Source of the DNA: a virus
Taxonomy: Duplodnaviria > Heunggongvirae > Uroviricota > Caudoviricetes
Strand: one strand, 5' to 3'
Length of the DNA: 64,000 nt
IMG/VR virus record: IMGVR_UViG_3300047476_001337
Location: 10,296-74,295 of that record
A model generated the notes under the pieces. It was given only the letters and a program-made list of their open reading frames with translations. It ran no database searches and was not told where the DNA came from. Positions 4,608 to 53,648 of this stretch are shown in pieces; position 1 is the first letter of the stretch, and each line of letters begins with the position of its first letter. Made by a program: the position numbers and the translations under genes.

Positions 4608-4608
4608 A

Positions 4609-4785
4609 TTACAATTTATCGTCCTCTTTAATTATAGGGTCTTTTTTTAAGAACTCCAAATGAATCCCCTTGTCTTCCCCCATTCTAGCTCTTGATATTA
4701 CAAGTTCTAGTTTTTTCTTATATTCTTCAGTATAATCATACTGGCCAAAAGTATAATATTCAGTTTCCATTTTTTCAGTTTCCAT
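4609..4785 (-). CDS. small-paralogue family member A (59 aa; METEKMETEYY...RARMGEDKGIHLEFLKK...)
   Basis: Hand-translated; it falls below the 60-aa track cutoff. Conserved MGEDKGIHL motif; the reading frame was checked. Confidence 0.45.
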   Translation of the reverse strand: METEKMETEYYTFGQYDYTEEYKKKLELVISRARMGEDKGIHLEFLKKDPIIKEDDKL

Positions 4786-4945
4786 TTTCTATATCGATGT
4801 CCAAGTTTATTTGGGGGGTGTTTTTTAAGAATCCCAAATGAATACCTTTGTCTTCCCCCATAATAGCTCTTGACATTATAAAGGTAAGTTCTTCCAAAAA
4901 CTCGTCATCAGGTTTATAATCATTCAAAGTATATTCAGTACCCAT
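4775..4945 (-). CDS. small-paralogue family member B (57 aa; MGTEYTLNDYKPDDEF...AIMGEDKGIHLGFLKN...)
   Basis: Hand-translated; conserved motif. Its start lies 10 nt downstream of the palindrome AATTTTCCAGAAAATT. Confidence 0.45.
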   Translation of the reverse strand: MGTEYTLNDYKPDDEFLEELTFIMSRAIMGEDKGIHLGFLKNTPQINLDIDIENGN

Positions 4946-4954
4946 TTTTTCAAA

Positions 4955-4970
4955 AATTTTCCAGAAAATT
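4955..4970. promoter_or_regulatory. imperfect palindrome AATTTTC-CA-GAAAATT, copy 1, just upstream of a start codon
   Basis: The same 16-mer with a shared A-rich flank recurs at 6477..6492 upstream of the HNH endonuclease gene. Confidence 0.4.
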
Positions 4971-4975
4971 CTTTT

Positions 4976-5113
4976 TTACAATTTGACCCCTTCTTGAATT
5001 AGGGGGTCTTGTTCTGGGGAAACAACTAAATGAATCCCCTTATCTCCACCCATCTTATCTCTTAAAATTGATGTACGTATTTTTTCAATAGCTTCATCAT
5101 GTAGATTCCTCAT
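4976..5113 (-). CDS. small-paralogue family member C (45 aa; MRNLHDEAIEKIRTSILRDKMGGDKGIHLVV...)
   Basis: Hand-translated; conserved motif. Confidence 0.4.
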   Translation of the reverse strand: MRNLHDEAIEKIRTSILRDKMGGDKGIHLVVSPEQDPLIQEGVKL

Positions 5114-6606: not shown

Positions 6607-6687
6607 TGTGGATAACTTTATTCCCCCTCCCCCTATGACACCATGTCATGTGGATAACTTATGGTCCCCCTCATATGGTGTGTATAA
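6607..6687. promoter_or_regulatory. DnaA-box-like cluster I: TGTGGATAA at 6607..6615 and 6649..6657, plus a one-mismatch TGTGTATAA at 6679..6687
   Basis: Perfect matches to the bacterial DnaA-box consensus TTATCCACA/TGTGGATAA. They lie next to G7/G6/C6 homopolymer runs (6541..6600) that are atypical for this AT-rich sequence. Confidence 0.45.
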
Positions 6688-7252: not shown

Positions 7253-7640
7253 TGGTCTCATACGCCATTGTCGATAGTGTCACCCTTGTAATGTTGAAAT
7301 CCCCCTCGTTAAGATGAAAGTACTTGTGGAGTATCTCATGTAGTGGCTTAAGGTCACAGTCCACCATCATCCATACGTTCTGACTTAGGGGTTTCCTACT
7401 GAACCCTGTCTTACCCTTATGGAACCATATGATTGCCTCAGGTAATACATTCCCCCTGTTTGGGACATATCTTAGTATTATCCCATTGGATGACTCCTCT
7501 ATCTTGGGGGTAAAGTATTTCAGTACAATTAAACGTATGTTATCGTCCGTTAGTTTGGATGGTCCATATACATCACCTCCCATTAATTGAATCTCACTCA
7601 TATTGTTGATAAATATAATGTTATCCACACTTTTGTCCAT
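7227..7640 (-). CDS. hypothetical protein (137 aa)
   Basis: ORF; a DnaA-box 9-mer (7621..7629) lies inside its first codons. Confidence 0.45.
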   Translation of the reverse strand: MDKSVDNIIFINNMSEIQLMGGDVYGPSKLTDDNIRLIVLKYFTPKIEESSNGIILRYVPNRGNVLPEAIIWFHKGKTGFSRKPLSQNVWMMVDCDLKPLHEILHKYFHLNEGDFNITRVTLSTMAYETINEWAKQS

Positions 7641-7686
7641 ACTGACACCCTGTCATGTGGATAAAAAAAATTGGGATTGTGGATAA
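7621..7686. promoter_or_regulatory. DnaA-box-like cluster II: TTATCCACA at 7621..7629, TGTGGATAA at 7656..7664 and 7678..7686
   Basis: Three perfect 9-mers within 66 bp in both orientations. The 22-bp direct repeat TGACACCNTGTCATGTGGATAA occurs at 6636..6657 and 7643..7664. Confidence 0.45.
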
Positions 7687-8306
7687 CTTTGGGGGTAAAA
7701 ATTTGGAATTGTCAAAATGTCAGGTCCCTCTTTCGCATGGGGATAATGCCTTTACGGGGTTTTCATTTCCCCCACTATCTCCCACAGGGATATAATTGTA
7801 TAGTAGAATTCCCCCTGACGCTATCAGGAGAACCAATTTTATCCCCCTCACAGTAGCAAGAAGACCACTTTTTTTACTATATATAAAACCCAGAGAATAA
7901 TAGTTGTTATGAGTGCCTAGTCGGGTGGACACGTAGTGTCTTAGAATATTCCTTCAAGGAGGACGAAGTCTATTACTAAGATGACCCCTAATATAGACCA
8001 ATATATTCCTGTCCCCTTAGTTTATATGGATATTACATGATGTTAAATATATGTGGGAGAAAGTGGGAGTTATAGTTTATATCTAATTAGTCAGGTGAAA
8101 CCTGACCATTGTGATATACATAATAATAACTCCGTAATCTCCCCCACAATCTATGTCTACTCTATATGTCTCTACATATAATCTTTCATGTTCCTTAATG
8201 ATTATATCTGATTACATATAATATCAGACAACTATATAACATCTCACTGTATCCATCTCCTTTAGTGGGGGACAAACTACAAGTGGGGGTTCTTGTGGTG
8301 GGGGAA

Positions 8307-34400: not shown

Positions 34401-35426
34401 TTATTTTTCAGATAACAAAAATTTGTTTGAGATTGCTTTGAAAGAGATTGTGTTATCCAATGAACGAACAACAACACCTTCACGTTCGGTAAGCTTATTC
34501 AAACGAGATTTGTCTTCAGCCAGTTTCAACATACCTTCAACAGTATCAGGTAATAAGAATGCCACATCCAAGATTGGAACGGATAACAATTCTAACTCAT
34601 CCAATAAGATTAAGAAGTCATTGATGTTCATTCTTGTTTGTGTATCAATATCAAACCCATTGAAGAAGTGAACTGTCTGACCTTTGATTTTATATGGGTT
34701 ACCTTGGATACCTTCACCAATCAACTCACCTTGTAGACAGATGTTTCCTTTATCTTTCAATTTGTTTTCCAAGTCAAGTTCACGGGCAACTTTCCAAAAA
34801 GTATTTCCTTCAGTTTCCAATAACTCAAGGTTACGAGAACATACACCGAACACACCATCATTCATGTAGAATGTTGCAGATGAACCATCCAACTTTTCAG
34901 TCATGTAGAACTGATGTTTAGATGTTAACTTATATTCTTCATACTCCTTAACCAAGTTCTGAATTCTTTCCTCATCAGTCTTACGTAAGAAAGATGGGAA
35001 CCCACCTTTTACTTTACCAGATAGTTCAGCAGGAATTGGTGGTTCGTATTTCACAATACCCAACATTTCGGTAACATCCATACCTTCAGGTAAATCATGT
35101 CCTGTTGCAAATTGTACAATTGGAACAACACTAATTGGAAGAATAAGTCCTTGGGAGACTTGTCCACGAAGTTTAATTGTCTTCAAACGGAAACCTTCTT
35201 GGTCATCCATTTTTTTGTAAGATGATTTACGTAAAAACTCAAACTCTTCCCTGATAGGTAAGAATGAATCAATTTCACAGTAAACTACTTTGTCACCAAT
35301 CTTATGCCCAACATTTTTGGCAACAACAACATTCCATCCGCCAACAGATGCCAATTCAATCATGTCCGCACCTTCAATAGGTCGAATGTCTGTAATTTCT
35401 CTAATAGTCGCTAACTTTCTTTCCAT
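34401..35426 (-). CDS. RNA ligase-like nucleotidyltransferase with an N-terminal OB-like domain (Rnl5/DraRnl-like architecture)
   Basis: Adenylyltransferase motif I EKLDGSS (KxDG); the N-terminal ~110 aa (IEGADMIELASVGGWNVVV...GDKVVYCEIDS) look like an OB fold. I could not distinguish an RNA from a DNA ligase by eye. Confidence 0.55.
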   Translation of the reverse strand: MERKLATIREITDIRPIEGADMIELASVGGWNVVVAKNVGHKIGDKVVYCEIDSFLPIREEFEFLRKSSYKKMDDQEGFRLKTIKLRGQVSQGLILPISVVPIVQFATGHDLPEGMDVTEMLGIVKYEPPIPAELSGKVKGGFPSFLRKTDEERIQNLVKEYEEYKLTSKHQFYMTEKLDGSSATFYMNDGVFGVCSRNLELLETEGNTFWKVARELDLENKLKDKGNICLQGELIGEGIQGNPYKIKGQTVHFFNGFDIDTQTRMNINDFLILLDELELLSVPILDVAFLLPDTVEGMLKLAEDKSRLNKLTEREGVVVRSLDNTISFKAISNKFLLSEK

Positions 35427-36205: not shown

Positions 36206-37960
36206 TTATTTGTTTACCACAACCTGATATACTATTTGGTTGTTTCCACCTTGTATGTGGAAGAAATACAATCCACTATTCAAATCAGACAAGTTTACAT
36301 TTACAAAGTTATTACCTGAGATAACATTCATTGTTGTTACCTTTCTTACCATTCTACCATTCAAATCTGTAATATACACATCAGCATTAAATCCTTTTGT
36401 CGATGTAAACTCAACGGTATATTCACCATTTGTTGGGTTAGGGTAAGAATTAACTGAAGTGATTTTACCTACTGATTTAACATGTAACACACCATATTGA
36501 CCTAAAACACCATATTCAAAGTTTGATGGGTAGTTTGTTGTTGGTCTAAAATCAGGTTGATTAAAGTCGTTTGTATTGACCAATATGCCTGGGTTGAAAG
36601 TGTTGGTATCAATAAAATTGTTGTTGATTGAATTACGAACCCAACTATCCAATAGATTTACATTACCACCTGAACTTACCTCAACCAAACCTGTATTAGT
36701 TGGTCCAACAGGTGCTGATGCTTTTACACCATAAATGTAATTGTTTCTGAACAAGTTGTTTTTATCTGAAATTATATTTGATTTAACACCTGAATTAATC
36801 AATACAGAATCACCATCAAACATTACGAAGTTTCTGTAACCCATAAAGATTGAGTTGATGATACTCAAACGAGAGTTTCTACGAATTCTTACTCCACGTC
36901 TAAATGCTCCCTTTTGTGTTGTAGTTAATTGAGACCATGTCATACCAGCAGGTACTGGACCAACACAAGTCATATTTGAGAATACTGCGGATGTCAATGG
37001 TAATCTACCTGAACCTGATGCGTCATTGTCCGATTCAAATGTTTCAGAAGTTGATGCCCCTGATGGTGCATTCCAAGACATATCATATAGTTGTGAATCC
37101 TTAAATGCAATACCAAATTGAACCGCGCCTCTGTATCCAAAGTCTGTATCAAAATCGTCATCAGTAGTTTTGAATGAGATTAGATGTTTACAGTTAACAG
37201 TACCACCAAACCATTCATACGAATCATCACCTGAGTATGAAACTTGAACATGGTCAACTGTAGTATTTCTTCCAACCGAAGCAAATGTTAATCCATTAAT
37301 TTCTTTGTTGGGTTCAAACGCCAAACCACAAAATTCAATCCTTGTATATCTGATTAGACCACTATTATCATCATCGTTGATTCCACCATGCTTTGCTAGT
37401 GTTGAGTTTGTTGAAATGTTATTAAATCCTTCAACTTGAATGTCAGTACCTTGGTTATTTCTTGCCTTACCACAGATAACGATTCCACCCCAATCACCTC
37501 TACCTTTATATCCAATATCCTTTGCCGATGTAAACACAACAGGACTATTTGAAGTTCCTTCACATGAAATATAACCACCTCTTTCAACTATAATTGTTGC
37601 ATATTGTTTTGGTGTCATACTCAAATTCGCAATACCTCTGATTATAGTTCCAGCAGGGATAATCAATTTACCACCGTCTCTAACAACAACAATACTTCTT
37701 AATACGTAAGTACGTTTTGCAACCAAAGTTACAGTTCCAGTAATTTCAACAATACCTGTTGGACTATTGAAAGCCGTAGTGTCCCATCCATAATCCGCAG
37801 CCCAATAAATGCTTTTAGGGTTCCAATGTGTCCATCCACTGGTCCAATCTTTTGATTTGTCAGCCGATAAGGCTCCAACGTAATCAACTTTCTCAAAGAA
37901 TTGAGCATGTCCTGTAATACACAACAAGACCGATAATAATGTAAAAATTATTTTTTTCAT
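36206..37960 (-). CDS. secreted beta-helix-like protein (584 aa) with a T9SS type-A C-terminal sorting domain (Por_Secre_tail)
   Basis: Signal peptide MKKIIFTLLSVLLCITGHAQ. The C-terminal ~80 aa (SYPNPTNGEYTVEF...ADVYITDLNGRMVRKV...LSDLNSGLYFFHIQGGNNQIVYQVVVNK) match the type-A T9SS CTD. Gly/Asn/Asp/Thr-rich repeats in the middle suggest a parallel beta-helix, which would fit a depolymerase or lyase. Confidence 0.8.
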   Translation of the reverse strand: MKKIIFTLLSVLLCITGHAQFFEKVDYVGALSADKSKDWTSGWTHWNPKSIYWAADYGWDTTAFNSPTGIVEITGTVTLVAKRTYVLRSIVVVRDGGKLIIPAGTIIRGIANLSMTPKQYATIIVERGGYISCEGTSNSPVVFTSAKDIGYKGRGDWGGIVICGKARNNQGTDIQVEGFNNISTNSTLAKHGGINDDDNSGLIRYTRIEFCGLAFEPNKEINGLTFASVGRNTTVDHVQVSYSGDDSYEWFGGTVNCKHLISFKTTDDDFDTDFGYRGAVQFGIAFKDSQLYDMSWNAPSGASTSETFESDNDASGSGRLPLTSAVFSNMTCVGPVPAGMTWSQLTTTQKGAFRRGVRIRRNSRLSIINSIFMGYRNFVMFDGDSVLINSGVKSNIISDKNNLFRNNYIYGVKASAPVGPTNTGLVEVSSGGNVNLLDSWVRNSINNNFIDTNTFNPGILVNTNDFNQPDFRPTTNYPSNFEYGVLGQYGVLHVKSVGKITSVNSYPNPTNGEYTVEFTSTKGFNADVYITDLNGRMVRKVTTMNVISGNNFVNVNLSDLNSGLYFFHIQGGNNQIVYQVVVNK

Positions 37961-42275: not shown

Positions 42276-43805
42276 TTATTTCAATAGAGACCTAATCTGT
42301 GTCAGTGTCGTTTCATTATGAAACTCTCCGTTGAAGTATATTGTTCTTAGTTCTCCAGAATTTTCCGTTTTCCAATCACAATGGTCAATCAACTCATAGG
42401 TACCATCGTTTTCGTTTTCAAAAACCGCCAACAAACCAGTTGCGGATTTTTTAGTTCCATCATCAGTAATTGGGTCTTTGAAGATTTCTCTACCAACAAT
42501 TTTAGTGTTTAATCCTTGGTCAATCATATCACCGTATACAGGTTCTTGAAGTTCTACATAAGTTGCTTTCATTGCGAAACCAAATGTGTCACGGGTATTG
42601 TATTGGTATGTGAATGAACCGATACCTAATACTACGTTTGTAGATGCGAAACCTTTAGCTTCTAAACGTCTACAAATCTCATCCGCCCTTTCAATAGTGA
42701 TTGAGTCACCATAGATTGCTCCTATGTGTGGGTCAAGAACTTTGTAACCTTGTTCGTTAATTGTTCCACCAAATACATCCCATAGTAATTCGATTACACC
42801 TTTTTCTCTTACTTTATATGACTTATGGTAATCTTCACCTGTACTACTATCATAAGCTTTCAAGGTACCACAAAGAATATCTACTGGGTCACCTGAATCA
42901 GGACGAATAACCAATTTACCATCACGAGCCAAAATCTCGTCTTTCAATGTAACCACGTGCTCGGTACATACTTTCCATAAGTCCCAAGTGTCCGATACAA
43001 CTGAAAGAATACCTTTAGGATATGTATTCAACAATCTACGGAATGTTTCAACTTCATCTTCTTTGGTTCCCGCACACATTACAGAGTGTTCTGTTGCCGG
43101 TACTGAACCACAAACAAACTCAGTTTCACCATAGTATTTACGTGCTCCATAGATAGTTGGTAATGAATCTGAACCGAAGAATGAAGTTAAGTGACCAAGA
43201 CCTGAACTGATGGTTGCTTCCGCCGAATCCATACCTCTCATTGAGAAGTCGTGTCCTTGCCAATCAATGAACCAAGCATTTTCTTTATCGGTTTTTTCCA
43301 TCCACTTAGTCAATACCTTACGATATTGGTTAGCAATGGTTGCTGATGTCATTGGTTTCCACATTAAGTTAGACAAAAGGGTTTCCAAATAGTTGGTCAA
43401 CCAATAGAAATCAGGATGTGTATTGTAGATAGTCAACACAGGTACCTTAATTGGAACTTTCTTACCTTCAGTAATACTTTTTACAATGATTGGTAGGTAA
43501 CCCAAGTCATGTAATTTTTCAATGTGTGTTACATCATAATCAGTTCCCAAGTACATGGACAACTCACGTTTAACTTCACCACAAACCACGTCTTTTGGTT
43601 GATAGAAAAACCCTTCTTGGAACATTTCATGGATTTGTTTCATAACCATTTGACTTCCAAAGACAACAACTTGGTCACACCCTTTTGGTGCGTACTTGTT
43701 ACTTCTTGGTGTGAAGTTGGAATACACTAAGGTAGTTCCTTCAGGGTATTGTTGGTGATGGCCAGTCTTGTAGCCATCTGTCAATAAAAATGGATTTATT
43801 TTCAT
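42276..43805 (-). CDS. nadV: nicotinamide phosphoribosyltransferase (NadV/NAMPT)
   Basis: MKINPFLLTDGYKTGHHQQYP..., 509 aa, typical NAMPT length and N-terminal signature. Confidence 0.85.
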   Translation of the reverse strand: MKINPFLLTDGYKTGHHQQYPEGTTLVYSNFTPRSNKYAPKGCDQVVVFGSQMVMKQIHEMFQEGFFYQPKDVVCGEVKRELSMYLGTDYDVTHIEKLHDLGYLPIIVKSITEGKKVPIKVPVLTIYNTHPDFYWLTNYLETLLSNLMWKPMTSATIANQYRKVLTKWMEKTDKENAWFIDWQGHDFSMRGMDSAEATISSGLGHLTSFFGSDSLPTIYGARKYYGETEFVCGSVPATEHSVMCAGTKEDEVETFRRLLNTYPKGILSVVSDTWDLWKVCTEHVVTLKDEILARDGKLVIRPDSGDPVDILCGTLKAYDSSTGEDYHKSYKVREKGVIELLWDVFGGTINEQGYKVLDPHIGAIYGDSITIERADEICRRLEAKGFASTNVVLGIGSFTYQYNTRDTFGFAMKATYVELQEPVYGDMIDQGLNTKIVGREIFKDPITDDGTKKSATGLLAVFENENDGTYELIDHCDWKTENSGELRTIYFNGEFHNETTLTQIRSLLK

Positions 43806-45055: not shown

Positions 45056-46003
45056 TTAAAATACGTTAAGTTGTTTTACTAATTTGTGGATTGATTTGTG
45101 TTTTGAAAAGGTATTTACGATAATCCCGTCTTGGATATCTTTAACACTATTTGTTGTATAGATGCCTGAGATATAATCCGCCAATCCTTCAAAACCATAA
45201 CTAAAAATTCCGTGTGTTACAACAAGGTAAATCTCACCAATAAATTTTTTATCCGATTTAATTGCTTTAGCAACTTCAATAAAAGTTCTTCCACCATCAC
45301 AAATATCATCAATGATGAAGATGTCTTTATCACAATAATCAGTGATATTCAAAGGAACATTGGTTCTTTCAATCTGACCCGTTATAGGGTTTCTATATTT
45401 TGTCGCCACAATAACATCAGACTTATACCCAATGTGTTGAGCCACACCATAAATCTTTTTCAATGCACCTGCGTCAGGTGAAACAAGTAATATATTATCA
45501 ACATTCTCTTGTTTCCATGTTTTATGACCTTTTGAAATAAAATAATCTCTGAAAGTAAAGTTGAGTAATTCTCCAGTACCTATCTTACTGAAGTTGTTGA
45601 TACAAGCCTCAAGTACATCACTATGTGGGTCCATAATTTCAACCTCTTCATAACCTTGTAGATTTATGATAGGTGCAATAACATCCTTAATGTAGTTGAT
45701 ACTACCTTTCATGAATTTACGGTCACTTCTTCCACCTAAACAATAAGGAATATAAAGACGAATTCGTTTGATACCAATATTCTTTAATGCTTGTGTAGCA
45801 CAAAGAATAATCTCCAAATCTTCAAAACTATTCAATCTTGATTTAATTGTTATACCATGTTCTTGAGAATACTCTCTCAATGACTCAAAGGTATTGTCTT
45901 CATCTTCAATCAAATTGAATGAATGTTGACCATCGGGGAAATGACTAATCTCATATTTGAATGAGAACATGTCGTTTGGGTTAACTAAATTTATAAAGTC
46001 CAT
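45056..46003 (-). CDS. prs: ribose-phosphate pyrophosphokinase (PRPP synthetase)
   Basis: RIRLYIPYCLGGRSDRK resembles the Prs signature IPYFGYARQDR; the PRPP-binding loop DIFIIDDICDGGRTFIEVAKAI resembles VLVDDMIDTGGT. Confidence 0.8.
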   Translation of the reverse strand: MDFINLVNPNDMFSFKYEISHFPDGQHSFNLIEDEDNTFESLREYSQEHGITIKSRLNSFEDLEIILCATQALKNIGIKRIRLYIPYCLGGRSDRKFMKGSINYIKDVIAPIINLQGYEEVEIMDPHSDVLEACINNFSKIGTGELLNFTFRDYFISKGHKTWKQENVDNILLVSPDAGALKKIYGVAQHIGYKSDVIVATKYRNPITGQIERTNVPLNITDYCDKDIFIIDDICDGGRTFIEVAKAIKSDKKFIGEIYLVVTHGIFSYGFEGLADYISGIYTTNSVKDIQDGIIVNTFSKHKSIHKLVKQLNVF

Positions 46004-48630: not shown

Positions 48631-48864
48631 TTATATTTTAATTTCTATTATTTTTCCTTGTTTAACTCTTTCTTCAATTTCAATTTCATCAACACATTGA
48701 GCGTAGGCGGATTTCAATGACCGCCCACCCCAATCTTTATTTGTTATTGAACTAGTAATCCAATTGTCATCATTCCACAATGATGTCCATCCGTGTAACT
48801 TAACAACCTCAATCATTTCTTCTTTTGTTACAACTTTTTCCATTCCGGTTTTATTATGTTCCAT
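48631..48864 (-). CDS. hypothetical protein (77 aa)
   Basis: ORF whose start overlaps the end of the ligase gene. Confidence 0.45.
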   Translation of the reverse strand: MEHNKTGMEKVVTKEEMIEVVKLHGWTSLWNDDNWITSSITNKDWGGRSLKSAYAQCVDEIEIEERVKQGKIIEIKI

Positions 48865-49868
48865 ATCAATTTATCATAAGGTTTTCCATCCCACATGGCA
48901 AACATCACCGCTCTATAAGGTGGATGTCCATGTTCCAATACATGTTGAGCGAACTCTTTCTTAGTTGGTTCAACTTCTCTATCACCATACTTTCCGTAAC
49001 GGAAATAGTCATGAGCCTTTCCACAATGTTCAGACACTTGGTAATAACCATATTTCAATCTCTCAGCATATTCCTTTACCTTAGCATAGAACTCATCAGG
49101 TACATCCTTCAAGAACTCATTGATGTCACCACCATTAGCCAAGAACTCCCATACACCAGTGGTTGAAACATTTGTCATTATCTTATGAAGACGCAAATAT
49201 TCCTCACCCTTGATTTTCATTCGGTTTCCATTAGAGAAACGAACAACAAACCCTTCAGCGTTCTGTTCAACTTTATCCTTCAATTCGGAATAATCCCGAA
49301 TTCCATCGTATTTTTTGACAACATCAAACCCTTCAAACAATTCATTGTATGGAAGTTCTTCACCAGTATCAGTGTTGATTATACCAAGCAATACCAAACG
49401 CTCCTCACCGTTGTAGTCAACCACGATTCTATTCTCAGGATAGATTATCTCAAACAAATAAGTGTACCCTTCAACGATAATGTCTTGGTAGTTGTACTTC
49501 ATAGCAAAGTCGGTCATCCACTTTGATTGGTCTGAAGTAAATGAACCACGAGTGGCACATATCATCGCACCATTGTACTTGAACATGATTCCCAAAGAAC
49601 CATCCATCTTTTCAAAGACCTCAAAGTCAGATGTTGGTACGTGTTTGTTCTCCTCTATGTTGAAGAACTTTTTGAATGGTCGGGCAATTACATTACCTCT
49701 GTTATCAGTAACCAATCCACGACATGACAATGTAACATCGTCCCACAAGTCACCGTACTGAACGTTCGGTGTGTAGTTCCATATGGATAATGGCAAACTA
49801 CGGTGTGTCTGTTTGAACAACAAACCCCTTTTTGTGTAGTCATCTAATATGGCCATTGGGAATTTCAT
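48828..49868 (-). CDS. RNA ligase, T4 Rnl1-like (tRNA repair ligase)
   Basis: SCRGLVTDNRGNVIARPFKKFFNIEEN...FEVFEKMDGSLGIMF aligns with T4 Rnl1 [31 protein letters not shown]...YILTKEDGSLVSTY (motif I KxDGS); 346 aa. Confidence 0.7.
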   Translation of the reverse strand: MKFPMAILDDYTKRGLLFKQTHRSLPLSIWNYTPNVQYGDLWDDVTLSCRGLVTDNRGNVIARPFKKFFNIEENKHVPTSDFEVFEKMDGSLGIMFKYNGAMICATRGSFTSDQSKWMTDFAMKYNYQDIIVEGYTYLFEIIYPENRIVVDYNGEERLVLLGIINTDTGEELPYNELFEGFDVVKKYDGIRDYSELKDKVEQNAEGFVVRFSNGNRMKIKGEEYLRLHKIMTNVSTTGVWEFLANGGDINEFLKDVPDEFYAKVKEYAERLKYGYYQVSEHCGKAHDYFRYGKYGDREVEPTKKEFAQHVLEHGHPPYRAVMFAMWDGKPYDKLIWNIIKPEWKKL

Positions 49869-50517: not shown

Positions 50518-50862
50518 TTAATCCTGTAAAAATTTTACAGAAGTCCCCAATGTTTTTGAAATTCTATCAATCGCAGCATTAAAACCACCAATGTCTTTAT
50601 TGGTTAACACATAAATGTCACCAAGTTCTTTATACAAACCCCTTAATTTAACTGAGTTTGGCATGTCATCATAATTGGTGTAAACTGTAGCTCCAAACAT
50701 TTTAGTCAACTCGGTTCCTGTCGGTAATTTATTACCATACACACCATCTAAAATATCTTTAACAAGATTGTAATAGTTCATTGTGTAAGACTTGTTATCG
50801 TAGTGTTTTCCATTATAAATAAAACCTACTTTATCTTCAAATAAATGCTTATAAGTTTTCAT
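50518..50862 (-). CDS. hypothetical protein (114 aa)
   Basis: First ORF downstream of the 1.1-kb ORF-free region. Confidence 0.5.
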   Translation of the reverse strand: MKTYKHLFEDKVGFIYNGKHYDNKSYTMNYYNLVKDILDGVYGNKLPTGTELTKMFGATVYTNYDDMPNSVKLRGLYKELGDIYVLTNKDIGGFNAAIDRISKTLGTSVKFLQD

Positions 50863-50904
50863 GGTTAAAACATAATAAAAGTTAATTTATGAATCAATGC
50901 TTTT

Positions 50905-51951
50905 GCGATAAAATTATTATAAAAAAAGAAACCCCGAACAATTTCTCATTCGGGGTCGGACATAGGATACTATCCTATGTGGGGTTGGCTAAAACATTGA
51001 GACTACATGTTTCGTTGACCTGTCTTTTGTAGAGATTATACCGACCAAGGTTTCCTCTCGTGTCCACTCGTGTTGCCACAAGTATCAAGTCATCACCGAT
51101 TGTTTACGACAATCACACGTTTCGATTAAACCTACTCAACTATTACTTGCCTCTATAGAATCTTGCGGACTCTCTAAACCCGTGCCCAGGTACTAGGACT
51201 TTCTTAGTCAAAACTGAAGGACTTGGGGTCCTGTCAATTTCCTCGTTGGTATTTCTACCCAAGGAATTAGGTGACTTTCAGTTTAATCGCTCAGAGACTT
51301 CTCCTTTTTATCTTGATTCTTCTATCAACGAGAATTCAACATTGTGAGTCTATGAAGGTTGAGCTCTGAGGTGGCTAGCTTCTCTTTTGGAAAAGGAAAT
51401 ACCACTCAACCTTCTGTAATCCGCCAAGACTACGATTTATCTTGATGTCGTTAGATTGCTCTTTGGACACCTATGATAAACTGGTACCTAGCCCTACGTC
51501 AGATTGGCGTCTGAGTCGAACCATCACCTTTACCTATTCCTATTGATGTCTCCATCTCAACCCTGACACTCACGTAGTCAGAATAGATACTTTCTCTCAG
51601 CTGTCGCCCATGAGAATTTATCTGTAGGTAATTTGTTTAGTTGTGAGCCACTTTCGTGACACCGAAGTATTAAGCCGTTGAAACCTTTCCTCCCTATAGT
51701 CCCGTTACCGGGGTTATCTTAATCGACGCTAAACCGCCGAAGATACAAACCAATTTAATTTTGGGGGTAAATTGGTGTTTTCAAAGAACGTTTTGAGTGA
51801 AGGGAACCACGGTTTTAAGGAATATCTCCAACCTTTTTCTCAATTGTTTTACAAAGTTACGAAGACTTTTCCGAAGAGTCAAGTAATATTGTAATTTTTT
51901 TATTTGGTAAGTAATAAATATGTTATTGTTTACCAAAGTTATAAAAACATA
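50905..51951 (-). ncRNA. candidate large (~1 kb) structured non-coding RNA
   Basis: The 1126-bp interval 50863..51988 has no ORF of 60 aa or more in any frame and is visibly GC-richer than its surroundings. Its minus-sense 3' end carries two strong hairpins (CATAGGATA..TATCCTATG at 50961..50979 and CCCCGAA..TTCGGGG at 50932..50955) followed by TTTCTTTTTTT. Two minus-sense TAACTTTG -7 boxes sit near its 5' end (51944..51951 and 51852..51859). I could not assign a family by eye. Confidence 0.4.
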
Positions 51952-51988
51952 GTAATTTTTTTTCTTCTGTCAATACCTTTAGAAAAAA

Positions 51989-53224
51989 TTATTTCTCTTT
52001 TGGTATCCAAGGTTGTAAATTGTCTGACTTAGATATAATATCAGATGCCGGTAAGAACATTACATCTCTTTGATATTGACCAGGAGCCAAGTTCTTTGAA
52101 TCAACTTCCAATGCCTTTGTTCCCGTAACATAAATCCATCTATCTTGTTTTGAATTAACAGGTGTTCTACCTGACACACCATATATAATGGCATTTCCAT
52201 CAGGAGCAATTCTATAAAACTTAAATGGTTTAACTTGGTAGTTAATTGTCTGACCATTTTTCATGTTTACAACAATATCAACACCTGACTTATCAAGTTC
52301 ACCACCAGTCTCAGCAACAACCGTGATGTTTTCAATATCATCACCATATTGTTTTTCCAAATATGCTTTGGCTTTAATCTCATTATCATCACCCGTTACT
52401 CTACTTCTTGACAATAAGTCCATGATGATTTGGTTTTCAGAACTATCAGAGTTTAACAAAACATCCTCAAATCTATCTTCCAACCCACGTTCAATCATTT
52501 CAACGGCTTGTTCTTTGGTAGCATCTTTTGGTACGTTAAACAAATTCATTAAGTAAGTAGCAACTCCGTAGTGTGTGTTCAAGTAAGAAAGTGGGTGACC
52601 CTTTTCTGTTCCCTTGAAGAAGTAGTGACCTCTTACATTTTCAATCCCACGTTTATCCAACAAGTCCAAATGATTGTTCAATACTCTTTCAATCATTCTT
52701 CTATATAAACCTTGTTCAGGATTTGACTTGGATAGTTTTTCATTTGGTTTAACCAATTCATTTGTTTTCTTCACATTCCAAGTCTCAACAAGGATTGCCG
52801 ATTTTAGGGAATTGATTAAAGTTATGTTAGACATTTCGTATATAGTTTCTTTTTTCTCAGGGAATTCTTCTTGGTATTGTTTCATTAACATACCTGAATA
52901 TATGTTACAACCATCTTCATTACGTCCCCCAATATCAGGACCTTTCTCCCAACCTAAGAAGTCATGTTGAGCAGCATGTATCCACTCATGTGATAAGGTT
53001 CTTAATACATCAATCAACATTCTACCTTTAGATAAAACTCTAATAACACCGGACTCAATCGTATAAGAACCTGTTGTCATATCACCCTCTTTATCACCAA
53101 CAAATATAATTTTGTCGATGTTGTCGACAGGCATTTTATCCATCAAAAACTTAATGAAGTGATTAATCACCTCACGTTTTTTACTATCTAAATCTGAATT
53201 TTTGTATGTAACCTTAATTGACAC
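51989..53224 (-). CDS. hypothetical protein with an HExxH (zincin-like) motif (411 aa)
   Basis: RTLSHEWIHAAQHD contains HEWIH; there are no other recognisable domains. Confidence 0.55.
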   Translation of the reverse strand: MSIKVTYKNSDLDSKKREVINHFIKFLMDKMPVDNIDKIIFVGDKEGDMTTGSYTIESGVIRVLSKGRMLIDVLRTLSHEWIHAAQHDFLGWEKGPDIGGRNEDGCNIYSGMLMKQYQEEFPEKKETIYEMSNITLINSLKSAILVETWNVKKTNELVKPNEKLSKSNPEQGLYRRMIERVLNNHLDLLDKRGIENVRGHYFFKGTEKGHPLSYLNTHYGVATYLMNLFNVPKDATKEQAVEMIERGLEDRFEDVLLNSDSSENQIIMDLLSRSRVTGDDNEIKAKAYLEKQYGDDIENITVVAETGGELDKSGVDIVVNMKNGQTINYQVKPFKFYRIAPDGNAIIYGVSGRTPVNSKQDRWIYVTGTKALEVDSKNLAPGQYQRDVMFLPASDIISKSDNLQPWIPKEK

Positions 53225-53237
53225 AACAATAAATATC

Positions 53238-53648
53238 TTACTTCATGAAGTTTGTCACGAAGTCACGCAATGTTTCATTCATTGGTTCAGGTAATTCATC
53301 AATACCAAAGTATCCACACTCGGTATGTTCCTCACCATCAATGGCGTTTTCTAAGTCAGGATGAATCTCATCTTTGACATCGGTACCGAATACATACATC
53401 ATACCTTTTTGTTTTGTACCTTCACGGTTCATTCTATTTATCACCCCCAAGAAATAAATGGGTGTGTTTAATTCATGTGCGGTTTCTTCATAGAACTCTC
53501 TATGAGCAGCATGTGGAATCCCTTCACCCTTCTCAACACGTCCACCTGGTAAACTCCATTCACCAGGAAAGTTACTCATGTCAGCATTTCTTTTACAGAA
53601 TAAACACTTATCATCTTTACGAACAATTACCCCTGCGTATTTTTTCAT
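53238..53648 (-). CDS. Nudix hydrolase
   Basis: The Nudix box GGRVEKGEGIPHAAHREFYEETAH matches GX5EX7REUXEEXGU. Confidence 0.8.
   Translation of the reverse strand: MKKYAGVIVRKDDKCLFCKRNADMSNFPGEWSLPGGRVEKGEGIPHAAHREFYEETAHELNTPIYFLGVINRMNREGTKQKGMMYVFGTDVKDEIHPDLENAIDGEEHTECGYFGIDELPEPMNETLRDFVTNFMK

What the first reader, a model, noticed from the sequence alone, without database searches (positions are those of the whole stretch)
50863..51988. ORF-free 1.1-kb GC-richer interval with its own -7 boxes and a tandem-hairpin terminator: candidate large structured ncRNA
Intergenic spacers elsewhere in the window are mostly only a few nt. This 1126-bp stretch has no ORF of 60 aa or more on either strand and is visibly GC-richer than its flanks. 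Its minus-sense 3' end has two stable hairpins followed by a T-run. Its 5' part carries two copies of the TAACTTTG -7 box on the gene strand. That is the arrangement expected for a ~1-kb transcribed non-coding RNA. Large ncRNAs such as GOLLD, ROOL and OLE-like RNAs are known to reside in phages and prophages.
Basis: seen in the sequence. Interest (0 to 1): 0.75.

Follow-up and report, generated by a model that had tools for sequence, protein, structure and literature searches.

The report
GOLLD RNA gene in a phage
The 1.1-kb gene-free stretch encodes a full-length GOLLD RNA, a known giant phage non-coding RNA that assembles into hollow RNA cages in vitro and whose biological job is still unknown.

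Summary
Window 50863-51988 is the longest ORF-free and the GC-richest stretch of the window. On the minus strand it matches Rfam GOLLD (RF02032) over the whole model: 51414..50994, 298 bits against a threshold of 150, E 3e-84.

The Rfam model covers only the 3' half. The 5' half (51743..51415) is a structured domain that sits directly upstream of the GOLLD 3' domain in at least 69 IMG/VR viral contigs. On 13 diverse sequences, 97% of cells pair and 45 of 88 pairs show compensatory changes (0 of 500 shuffles reach this).

The gene has its own Bacteroidota-type promoter (TTGAC-N18-TAACTTTG; -7 box at 51859..51852), a conserved leader, and a hairpin plus T-run terminator ending near 50921. The predicted RNA is about 928 nt.

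It differs from the solved env-38 GOLLD in three ways. The second half of the 5' domain is shorter and unrelated in sequence. There is an extra conserved 5' leader. No tRNA gene occurs anywhere in the 64 kb.

Verdict: a new member of a known family, in a 5'-domain subtype with no solved structure that I could identify. Cage assembly is inferred, not shown. Interest is moderate to low.

The parts
51878..51882 (-). Upstream promoter element TTGAC (Bacteroidota -33-like), 18 nt upstream of the -7 box
   Evidence: TTGAC/TTTGAC lies at the same spacing from TAnnTTTG in all 51 unique type-B GOLLD loci; coordinates.
51852..51859 (-). Conserved -7 box TAACTTTG; the start site is predicted a few nt downstream, about 51848-51845 (inferred)
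   Evidence: Exact match. Conserved in position in all relatives. The TAnnTTTG/-33 TTTG Bacteroidota promoter consensus is from my own knowledge.
51934..51941 (-). Distal TAACTTTG copy; doubtful as a promoter
   Evidence: Exact match, but shared only with L028 in alignment A1.
51744..51848 (-). 5' leader, absent from the solved env-38 construct. It holds a lineage-specific hairpin, the GUUCUUUGAAA motif and a hairpin with a C-rich apex.
   Evidence: The same layout is visible upstream of the env-38-type GOLLDs in IMG/VR.
51779..51789 (-). Near-invariant leader motif GUUCUUUGAAA; role unknown
   Evidence: Present in nearly all of the 51 type-B loci (a few carry GUUCUUAC) and in most env-38-type loci, at a variable distance from the -7 box.
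51745..51778 (-). Leader hairpin with apical ACCCCC (51768..51763)
   Evidence: MFE fold. A variable hairpin carrying a C-rich apex, AACCCC(C/U)UUU in most and CCUUUCC in one subgroup, lies at this place in the type-B loci.
51415..51743 (-). GOLLD 5' domain, 'type B' (not covered by the Rfam model)
   Evidence: nhmmer: lies directly upstream of a GOLLD 3' domain in 69 loci. RNAalifold: 84-112 pairs. Controls: 97.4% of cells paired, 45/88 pairs compensatory, 0/500 shuffles, slid controls 16 or fewer. Only the first half (51743..51535) aligns weakly with the env-38-type profile, E 1e-6.
51701..51712 (-). Hairpin CCCG-GUAA-CGGG with a GNRA tetraloop
   Evidence: 3 of 4 stem pairs covary. The loop is G-N-R-A in all 13 representatives. 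It aligns with the env-38 GAAA hairpin whose A34/A35 make bridge B1.
51505..51509 (-). Apical loop CGCCA, 5' arm of a covarying loop-loop (kissing) pairing
   Evidence: Pairs with 51426..51422. 4 of 5 pairs show compensatory changes and 95% of cells pair.
51422..51426 (-). Loop UGGCG of the last 5'-domain hairpin, 3' arm of the kissing pairing
   Evidence: It lies 8-12 nt before the 3' domain, as does env-38 409-415 of intermolecular bridge B4; the analogy is an inference.
51569..51573 (-). 5'-domain loop GUGAG, paired with the start of the linker
   Evidence: Covaries with 51348..51344: GUGGA/UCCAC, GUGAG/CUCAC, GAGGG/CCUC, AUGGA/UCCAU.
50994..51414 (-). GOLLD 3' domain (Rfam RF02032, model 1-416)
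   Evidence: 298 bits against a gathering score of 150, E 3e-84 and 5.8e-86. Helices and pseudoknots covary in the type-B alignment.
51297..51353 (-). Variable A-rich linker (J13/15 equivalent); holds no tRNA; its 5' end (51348..51344) pairs with the 5'-domain loop
   Evidence: Unaligned insert region in the Rfam alignment. ARAGORN finds no tRNA. Weak fold. Pairing.
51385..51389 (-). CAAAA loop of the first 3'-domain hairpin
   Evidence: Conserved in the Rfam consensus. Equivalent to env-38 A447/A448, the donors of A-minor bridge B6.
51280..51289 (-). 5' arm of the Rfam-annotated pseudoknot (CGAUUAAACU)
   Evidence: Pairs with 51132..51123. Compensatory A-U to G-C change in L010. Covaries in the type-B set.
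51123..51132 (-). 3' arm of the pseudoknot (GGUUUAAUCG)
51163..51187 (-). Two adjacent hairpin loops that each contain GC: GGGCAC at 51187..51182 and CGCAA at 51167..51163
   Evidence: Stems covary. They occupy the places of env-38 L21a/L21b, whose GC dinucleotides make the self-kissing bridges B8/B9. My residue-level mapping is only approximate.
50960..50980 (-). 3'-tail hairpin ACAUAGGAUAGUAUCCUAUGU, downstream of the Rfam match
   Evidence: Conserved in the closest relatives only.
50921..50957 (-). Intrinsic terminator: a 12-bp hairpin followed by UUUCUUUUUUU
   Evidence: Terminator scan and fold. Most of the 13 related GOLLD 3' tails inspected end in a hairpin plus T-run about 40-70 nt after the 3' domain; L010's printed tail was cut before any T-run.

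Best explanation
The interval is a complete, independently transcribed GOLLD RNA gene on the minus strand of a large phage that most likely infects Bacteroidota.

Transcription would start a few nt after the conserved TTGAC-N18-TAACTTTG promoter (about 51848) and stop at the hairpin plus T-run (about 50921), giving an RNA of about 928 nt. The RNA has four parts:
- a leader, 51848..51744;
- a 5' domain of a widespread 'type B' kind, 51743..51415;
- the universally conserved GOLLD 3' domain, 51414..50994, with its variable linker at 51353..51297;
- a 3' tail with the terminator.

By homology with the two GOLLD RNAs solved by cryo-EM (env-38, a 14-mer; S. agalactiae, a 12-mer), it most likely self-assembles during lytic infection, without protein, into a hollow dihedral homo-oligomeric cage. 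In that model the 3' domains form the ring and the equatorial contacts, the 5' domains form the caps that fix the copy number, and the linker points inwards.

Shown here: family membership, boundaries, conserved structure, and conserved promoter and terminator. Inferred: transcription start, timing of expression, oligomerisation and copy number. The biological role is unknown for the whole family. I favour a role that does not depend on linked tRNA genes, such as sequestering or encapsulating a host or phage macromolecule, because this lineage carries no tRNA nearby.
For: - Family: full-length Rfam GOLLD match, 298 bits against 150, E 3e-84.
- 5' domain adjacency: it lies next to a GOLLD 3' domain in 69 IMG/VR loci, 51 of them unique.
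- 5' domain structure: 97.4% of cells paired, 45/88 pairs compensatory, 0/500 shuffles, slid controls 16 or fewer. Independent counts agree.
- One RNA, not two: a covarying pairing links a 5'-domain loop to the linker of the 3' domain, and the scan finds no convincing terminator between the halves (its one internal hit, 51232..51218, lies inside a covarying GOLLD helix).
- Transcription unit: promoter elements and leader are conserved in all 51 unique relatives; most of the 13 tails inspected end in a terminator.
- Contacts used in the solved cages are present in kind: the CAAAA loop, a GNRA loop at the B1 place, GC-containing L21a/b-like loops, and a covarying B4-like kissing pair.
- Cage formation by GOLLD comes from the literature: PMC12286853 and PMC12990946.
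- Phage and host context: RnlA-like and second RNA ligases, thymidylate synthase, NAMPT and DNA methyltransferase PHROG matches. Relatives lie on IMG/VR contigs of up to 295 kb. A T9SS sorting domain and TAnnTTTG enrichment point to Bacteroidota.
Against: - There are no expression data, so the start site and the single-transcript model are inferred.
- The second half of the 5' domain (51534..51415, about 120 nt) does not align with the env-38-type profile, where that part is about 200 nt. The cap contacts B2-B5 of env-38 therefore cannot be mapped, and the copy number cannot be predicted.
- My copy of the env-38 sequence lost about 16 nt in the PDF text. Residue-level mapping of the 3'-domain bridges is approximate.
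- The frequent tRNA association of GOLLD is absent here.
- Covariation cannot tell intramolecular from intermolecular pairing.
Confidence: 0.9

Rival explanations
1. Only the 3' 420 nt is GOLLD. The upstream 430 nt would be a separate element: an unrelated sRNA, a long 5' UTR, or the 3' UTR of the upstream gene.
For: The Rfam model stops at 51414. The env-38 5' domain does not detect this region as a single sequence.
Against: The region always lies directly upstream of a GOLLD 3' domain, in 69 loci. A 5'-domain loop covaries with the linker inside the 3' half. Its first half is remotely homologous to the env-38-type 5' domain. The terminator scan has only one hit inside the RNA (51232..51218), and that lies within a covarying GOLLD helix. 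The promoter lies upstream of the whole unit in all relatives.
Confidence: 0.03
2. The interval is a decayed, frame-shifted protein-coding gene.
For: None beyond the absence of an ORF.
Against: The interval matches an RNA covariance model at E 3e-84. Substitutions are compensatory within helices. Length variation among relatives falls in discrete hairpins. No translated search was run, so this rival is excluded only indirectly.
Confidence: 0.01
3. The interval is a GOLLD RNA, but its role is tied to tRNAs. It would store, shield or help process phage tRNAs, as proposed for GOLLDs that sit in tRNA arrays or carry a tRNA in the linker.
For: About 40 of 69 other IMG/VR GOLLD loci have same-strand tRNAs, often tRNA-Met within 500 nt. 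Cultured GOLLD phages (CcrBL9, Ccr34, Bajun) carry it beside tRNAs. The literature proposes this role. Two RNA ligases of tRNA-repair type are encoded in the window.
Against: There is no tRNA in the 64-kb window, none in the flanks held for the six closest relatives (L010, L011, L016, L025, L028, L066), and none in the linker. The unit has its own promoter and terminator. tRNA genes could still lie elsewhere in a genome of 200 kb or more.
Confidence: 0.12
4. The interval acts at the DNA level, as an origin, a packaging site or a recombination hotspot, and the RNA match is incidental.
For: It is a large non-coding, GC-shifted interval.
Against: Conservation follows RNA base-pairing, not DNA sequence. 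There are no repeats or iterons. A far better origin candidate, a cluster of DnaA boxes, lies at 6.6-8.3 kb.
Confidence: 0.01

Closest known systems
GOLLD RNA env-38 (Rfam RF02032; cryo-EM 14-mer nanocage, PDB 9MEE; Kretsch et al. 2025, PMC12286853)
   Same: The whole 3' domain matches (298-bit Rfam match): the CAAAA loop, the pseudoknots and the two GC-bearing L21-like loops. The two-domain layout with a variable linker is shared. The first half of the 5' domain is remotely homologous, including a GNRA hairpin at the place of the B1 donor. A kissing pair involves the loop just before the 3' domain, as in bridge B4.
   Different: The second half of the 5' domain is about 120 nt instead of about 200 nt and has no detectable sequence similarity. 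A conserved leader of about 100 nt lies upstream of P1 and is not in the solved construct. The gene has its own promoter rather than lying downstream of tRNA-Met, and no tRNA is nearby.
Streptococcus agalactiae GOLLD (700 nt; full length 12-mer, PDB 9L0R; 3' domain alone mainly 10-mer; reviewed in PMC12990946)
   Same: It is a GOLLD with a reduced 5' domain. The review says it lacks P9 and P11a-c and part of P7 and P10. Its size resembles the P1-to-end length here, about 750 nt.
   Different: According to the review it lacks P21b, whereas the window has both L21-like hairpins. It comes from a Firmicutes chromosome or prophage rather than a Bacteroidota-type phage.
GOLLD genes of cultured jumbo phages (Caulobacter phages CcrBL9 and Ccr34, Brevundimonas phage Bajun)
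   Same: GOLLD is carried by large virulent phages of 207-322 kb. The window's relatives lie on IMG/VR contigs of up to 295 kb.
   Different: Those copies are embedded among tRNA and tmRNA genes; in Ccr34 a tRNA-Gly lies within the GOLLD coordinates. Their hosts are Alphaproteobacteria. blastn finds no similarity to any INPHARED phage.
ROOL RNA (Rfam RF03087; 6- and 8-mer nanocages)
   Same: It is a large phage or prophage ncRNA of unknown function that forms RNA-only cages.
   Different: It has an unrelated sequence and fold, and no Rfam match occurs here.

Membership tests
GOLLD RNA (Rfam RF02032) | Scores above the curated gathering threshold of the family covariance model, over its full length | tested here: met
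   298 bits against 150, model positions 1-416 of 416, E 3e-84, not truncated.
GOLLD RNA (Rfam RF02032) | 3'-domain helices and pseudoknots supported by compensatory changes | tested here: met
   The covariation scan of 51 relatives recovers the nested helices, the annotated pseudoknot (51289-80/51132-23) and two further long-range helices (pair types).
GOLLD RNA (Rfam RF02032) | A large structured 5' domain directly upstream, giving a total length of about 700-850 nt or more | tested here: met
   The 5' domain at 51743..51415 has 88 pairs, 45 of them compensatory. P1 to the end of the 3' domain is about 750 nt, and the predicted transcript is 928 nt.
GOLLD RNA (Rfam RF02032) | A variable, poorly structured linker after the first 3'-domain hairpin | tested here: met
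   51353..51297 is A-rich, falls in the insert region of the Rfam alignment, folds weakly at -6.3 kcal/mol, and holds no tRNA.
GOLLD RNA (Rfam RF02032) | Encoded by a phage or prophage | tested here: met
   Phage-type gene content. Homologous loci lie on IMG/VR viral contigs.
GOLLD RNA (Rfam RF02032) | Neighbourhood of tRNA genes (frequent, not obligatory) | tested here: not met
   No tRNA in 64 kb, and none in the flanks held for the closest relatives, against about 40 of 69 other GOLLD loci.
GOLLD RNA (Rfam RF02032) | Protein-free assembly into a dihedral homo-oligomeric nanocage | not testable with these tools
   Known for env-38 (14-mer) and Sag (12-mer). Here only the sequence elements that make some of the contacts could be checked.
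GOLLD RNA (Rfam RF02032) | Expression that rises during phage lytic growth | not testable with these tools
   Reported for a Lactobacillus prophage GOLLD, cited in PMC12286853. No transcript data exist for this genome.
GOLLD, env-38-type 5' domain (P1-P13 as in PDB 9MEE) | Full-length similarity to the env-38 5' domain (nt 1-420) | tested here: not met
   The env-38 5' domain matches 63 other IMG/VR GOLLDs end to end, but not the window or its clade. A 54-sequence profile aligns only positions 4-215, E 1e-6.
   No hit at gathering threshold in the window. In 50800-52050 at E up to 1 the only other hit is a sub-threshold Ocean-VII match, 16.6 bits against 53.5.

The most novel reading that the evidence does not exclude
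The window's GOLLD would represent a distinct architectural subclass ('type B') that is widespread in phages with Bacteroidota-type promoters. Its features are a shortened, non-homologous second half of the cap-forming 5' domain and a conserved transcribed leader (GUUCUUUGAAA plus a hairpin with a C-rich apex) that is missing from the env-38 construct solved so far. It also has its own promoter and terminator and no tRNA linkage. If the 5' domain sets the copy number, as in Sag against env-38, this subclass would build a cage of different stoichiometry or geometry. The leader could then be a functional part, such as an assembly switch, a processing site or a cargo tether, that the published env-38 structure does not show.
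Probability: 0.3. Interest if true: 0.55.

Novelty: new member of a known kind. Interest (0 to 1): 0.33.

Why it matters
GOLLD is among the largest bacterial or phage ncRNAs. It was recently shown to form protein-free nanocages larger than a ribosome, yet its function is unknown.

This copy adds little that is new in kind. It does give a clean case for experiments:
- it is a self-contained promoter-RNA-terminator unit;
- no tRNA genes are nearby;
- it belongs to a phage lineage with many natural variants (51 or more unique sequences at about 60-80% identity), which already reveal covarying loop-loop contacts;
- its 5' domain differs from the env-38 structure; I could not compare it with Sag.

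It argues against a function that strictly requires linked tRNAs. It also points to a conserved leader that structural work has so far left out. For genome annotation, it explains the only large 'empty' interval of the window.

Tried and rejected
- blastn of the interval against 50,697 INPHARED phages found no match, so no cultured relative was available at the DNA level.
- The search for related loci with the upstream 411-aa protein found nothing. That gene is unique to this genome.
- My first IMG/VR pattern was both too loose and too narrow: only 5 of 28 loci held GOLLD.
- A scan of 185,579 species genomes for the type-B 5' signature gave 0 hits. This gave no host assignment through prophages. 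I did not use the second genome scan, because I could not design a GOLLD-wide pattern specific enough for 596 Gb.
- Weinberg et al. 2009, the original GOLLD description, is not held. What was already known about 5'-domain variants rests on later papers.
- Mapping env-38 bridge residues through a MAFFT alignment was only partly reliable. The PDF copy of env-38 lacks about 16 nt and the alignment is poor in places. I therefore claim only loop-level equivalences.
- RNAalifold pairings that involve the promoter box (51855-51/51636-32) or the far 5' flank were discarded as artefacts of aligning DNA-level conserved motifs.
- Some short 'covarying' runs in the all-against-all scan conflict with each other, for example those that use UUUC at 51399-96, and were discarded.
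- No covarying partner was found for the invariant leader motif.
- Neighbouring proteins (DHH-like, NUDIX, methyltransferase) gave only generic or sub-threshold family matches and no PDB relatives. Their synteny with GOLLD also holds in related phages carrying the other 5' type. I therefore read it as lineage synteny, not as a functional clue.
- The first z-score script timed out.
Full report
**1. The observation**

The interval 50863-51988 has no ORF of 60 aa or more on either strand; the longest is 51 aa. It is the longest such stretch in the window, 1126 nt against 518 nt for the next. GC is 0.41-0.43 across it, against 0.29-0.35 in the flanks and 0.333 overall. The GC maximum for any 928-nt stretch of the window lies inside it.

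All flanking genes are on the minus strand. On that strand the interval ends with a hairpin (50980..50960), then a 12-bp G+C-rich hairpin (50957..50930) and UUUCUUUUUUU (50931..50921). Two exact TAACTTTG boxes lie at 51859..51852 and 51941..51934.

**2. Identity**

cmscan of the whole window against Rfam 15 gives one hit at gathering threshold. It is GOLLD (RF02032), minus strand, 51414..50994, 298 bits against a threshold of 150, E 3e-84, covering model positions 1-416 of 416. A permissive scan of the interval repeats it and adds only a sub-threshold chance match. ROOL, OLE, HEARO, raiA and the introns do not match. ARAGORN finds no tRNA or tmRNA anywhere in the 64 kb.

**3. The other half**

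The Rfam model covers only the 3' half of GOLLD, the part conserved across the family (PMC12286853). I collected relatives from IMG/VR with two 3'-domain patterns and found about 75 GOLLD 3' domains with Rfam and nhmmer.

Five loci (L010, L011, L016, L025, L028) are close relatives of the window. Where sequence is held, four of them align over the whole unit from promoter to terminator, about 1 kb, at 81% mean column identity.

The 5' domain of the solved env-38 RNA (sequence from the paper's supplement) matches 63 of the other IMG/VR GOLLDs end to end. It does not match the window, its clade or L066. A 54-sequence profile of that 'env-38 type' aligns only its positions 4-215 with window 51743..51535, at E 1e-6.

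So the first half of the 5' domain is remotely homologous. The second half is not detectably similar: 51534..51415, about 120 nt here against about 200 nt in env-38.

This variant is not rare. Most of the 116 new loci carry this 5' domain, and wherever the held sequence extends far enough a GOLLD 3' domain follows directly. This gave 69 full-length copies, 51 of them unique, at 59-65% identity to the window in the 5' domain, or 79-82% for the closest four. I call this variant 'type B'.

**4. Structure of the 5' domain**

RNAalifold gave consistent results on three sequence sets:

| Set | Predicted pairs | Pairs with compensatory change |
|---|---|---|
| 6 sequences | 96 | 31 |
| 51 sequences | 112 | not totalled (paired fraction 0.9-1.0 per helix) |
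| 13 representatives below 90% identity | 84 | 41 |

On the 13-sequence alignment I named a structure and counted pairs with the control tool:
- 97.4% of cells form standard pairs;
- 45 of 88 pairs change on both sides;
- the covariation score is 0.439;
- 0 of 500 column shuffles reach any of these values;
- sliding the partners by 1-3 columns drops pairing to 31-44% and compensatory pairs to 8-16.

My own counts on 51 sequences agree: 97.7% paired, and 47 compensatory pairs against 11-19 when slid.

An all-against-all covariation scan of the full-length alignment recovers the nested helices of both domains, the Rfam pseudoknot (51289-80/51132-23) and further long-range helices (51370-64/51296-90; 51275-70/51097-92). 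It also finds two notable contacts.

(i) The apical loop at 51509..51505 pairs with the loop of the last 5'-domain hairpin at 51426..51422. The observed combinations are CGCCA/UGGCG, CUGUC/GACAG, CUGCC/GGCAG and CUGCA/UGCAG. Four of five pairs are compensatory.

(ii) The 5'-domain loop at 51573..51569 pairs with the first nucleotides of the linker at 51348..51344. The observed combinations are GUGAG/CUCAC, GUGGA/UCCAC, GAGGG/CCUC and AUGGA/UCCAU.

Contact (ii) ties the two halves into one RNA. Contact (i) sits where env-38 has intermolecular bridge B4, in which residues 409-415, just before the 3' domain, kiss a loop of a neighbouring chain. That equivalence is an inference, because covariation cannot separate intramolecular from intermolecular pairing.

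**5. Transcription unit**

All 51 unique type-B loci show the same order of elements:
- TTTGAC or TTGAC, then 18-20 nt, then TAnnTTTG;
- an optional small hairpin;
- the near-invariant motif (AC)GUUCUUUGAAA;
- a variable hairpin with a C-rich apex, AACCCC(C/U)UUU in most loci;
- P1 (GGCGGUUUAGCGUCG).

In the window these are TTGAC at 51882..51878, TAACTTTG at 51859..51852, GUUCUUUGAAA at 51789..51779, and the hairpin at 51778..51745 with ACCCCC at 51768..51763.

The -33 TTTG / -7 TAnnTTTG pair is the Bacteroidota housekeeping promoter consensus (my own knowledge). The start site, about 51848-51845, is inferred from it. The distal TAACTTTG is shared with L028 only. Most of the 13 related 3' tails I inspected end in a hairpin plus T-run 40-70 nt after the 3' domain.

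The predicted RNA, 51848..50921, is 928 nt.

The same promoter and leader layout, including GUUCUUUGAAA, is visible upstream of most env-38-type GOLLDs in IMG/VR. The solved env-38 construct starts at P1 and lacks it. I found no partner for this motif, so it remains unexplained.

**6. Context**

The window encodes:
- an RnlA-like RNA ligase (48828-49868) and a second RNA ligase (34401-35426);
- thymidylate synthase;
- NAMPT and PRPP synthetase;
- a NUDIX hydrolase (53238-53648);
- a DNA methyltransferase;
- a protein with a T9SS C-terminal sorting domain.

Relatives lie on IMG/VR contigs of 66-295 kb. The only INPHARED records with the neighbouring DHH-like protein are uncultured huge phages. 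TAnnTTTG is enriched window-wide, 158 copies against 100 +/- 10 expected. The genome is thus most likely a large, uncultured phage of a Bacteroidota host; this is inferred.

The order DHH-like protein, NUDIX, GOLLD recurs in 22-24 of the first 74 GOLLD loci, including env-38-type ones. I read this as lineage synteny. In the window a 411-aa ORF with no detectable relatives is inserted between NUDIX and the GOLLD promoter.

About 40 of 69 other GOLLD loci have same-strand tRNAs, often within 500 nt. Neither the window nor the held flanks of its closest relatives (L010, L011, L016, L025, L028, L066) carry one. The type-B signature is absent from 185,579 species-representative genomes, which fits virulent phages rather than prophages.

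**7. How it probably works**

Two GOLLD RNAs have been solved. Env-38 (833 nt) forms a D7 14-mer cage 380 A across. In it the 3' domains form the ring and the equatorial contacts, the 5' domains form the caps, and the linker points inwards. The S. agalactiae RNA (700 nt) forms a 12-mer, and its isolated 3' domain forms mainly 10-mers, so the 5' domain sets the copy number (PMC12990946).

The window's RNA keeps the 3' domain almost to the letter of the family consensus. This includes the CAAAA loop (the donor of bridge B6) and two GC-containing loops at the L21a/L21b places (bridges B8 and B9). It also keeps a GNRA loop at the place of the B1 donor and a covarying B4-like kissing pair.

I therefore consider self-assembly into a dihedral cage likely, at roughly 0.6. 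The copy number is open, because the cap-forming half of the 5' domain differs. The cargo and the biological role are unknown for the whole family. The lack of tRNA genes here argues against a role that needs linked tRNAs.

**8. Rivals**

- A separate 5' element is contradicted by the invariable adjacency, by the inter-domain covariation, and by the lack of a convincing internal terminator: the scan's one internal hit lies inside a covarying GOLLD helix.
- A decayed gene is contradicted by the covariance-model match and the compensatory substitution pattern. No translated search was run.
- A DNA-level element is contradicted by the same pattern.

**9. Verdict**

It is a new member of a known family (GOLLD), of a common 5'-domain subtype whose structure I could not match to env-38 and could not test against Sag. 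Interest is moderate to low for the finding as such. The conserved leader, the distinct cap domain and the tRNA-free, self-contained layout are the points a specialist might follow up.

Noticed in passing
window 6607-6687 and 7604-7746, with 7933-8306: All five perfect DnaA boxes (TTATCCACA) of the window lie in two spacers 1 kb apart, together with 1-mismatch copies. Next to them is a 374-nt ORF-free stretch that folds far better than shuffled sequence (z about -5 and -8). It has a 25-nt inverted repeat (7771-7795/8043-8067) and C5/G5-rich motifs. This may be a replication origin or a DnaA-dependent control region.
   Followed up: partly
window 51989-53224 (minus strand): A 411-aa ORF sits between the NUDIX gene and the GOLLD promoter. 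In the four close relatives held (L010, L011, L016, L028) NUDIX directly abuts GOLLD. The ORF has no homologue in any of the 74 GOLLD loci searched or in IMG/VR, and no Pfam, PHROG, NCBIfam or PDB match. It looks like a lineage-specific insertion.
   Followed up: partly
related loci, e.g. L114, L119, L122, L051, L089; window 51779-51789: The leader motif (AC)GUUCUUUGAAA, followed by a variable hairpin, also precedes P1 in most env-38-type GOLLDs of IMG/VR, at a variable distance from a TAnnTTTG promoter. It is absent from the env-38 cryo-EM construct. No pairing partner was found.
   Followed up: partly
window 42276-43805, 45056-46003, 53238-53648; 48828-49868, 34401-35426: An NAD-salvage-like set (NAMPT, PRPP synthetase, NUDIX hydrolase) and two different RNA ligases (RnlA-like phrog_562, and phrog_968) are encoded, yet no tRNA gene occurs in the 64 kb.
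   Followed up: no
window 36206-37960 (minus strand): A 584-aa phage protein ends in a type IX secretion C-terminal sorting domain (Por_Secre_tail, E 5e-13). This is unusual cargo for a phage and a clue to a Bacteroidota host. L028 has a 77% identical homologue.
   Followed up: no
window 4608-5109: This ORF-free 502-nt stretch appears to consist of three diverged tandem copies of about 165-200 nt. Each contains ...AAATGAAT(C/A)CC(C/T)TT(G/A)TCT(T/C)C(C/A)CCCAT..., so it may be a small array of paralogous mini-genes on the minus strand. This was seen only in the sequence printed.
   Followed up: no
This GOLLD subtype seems confined to non-integrated phages.
   Followed up: yes
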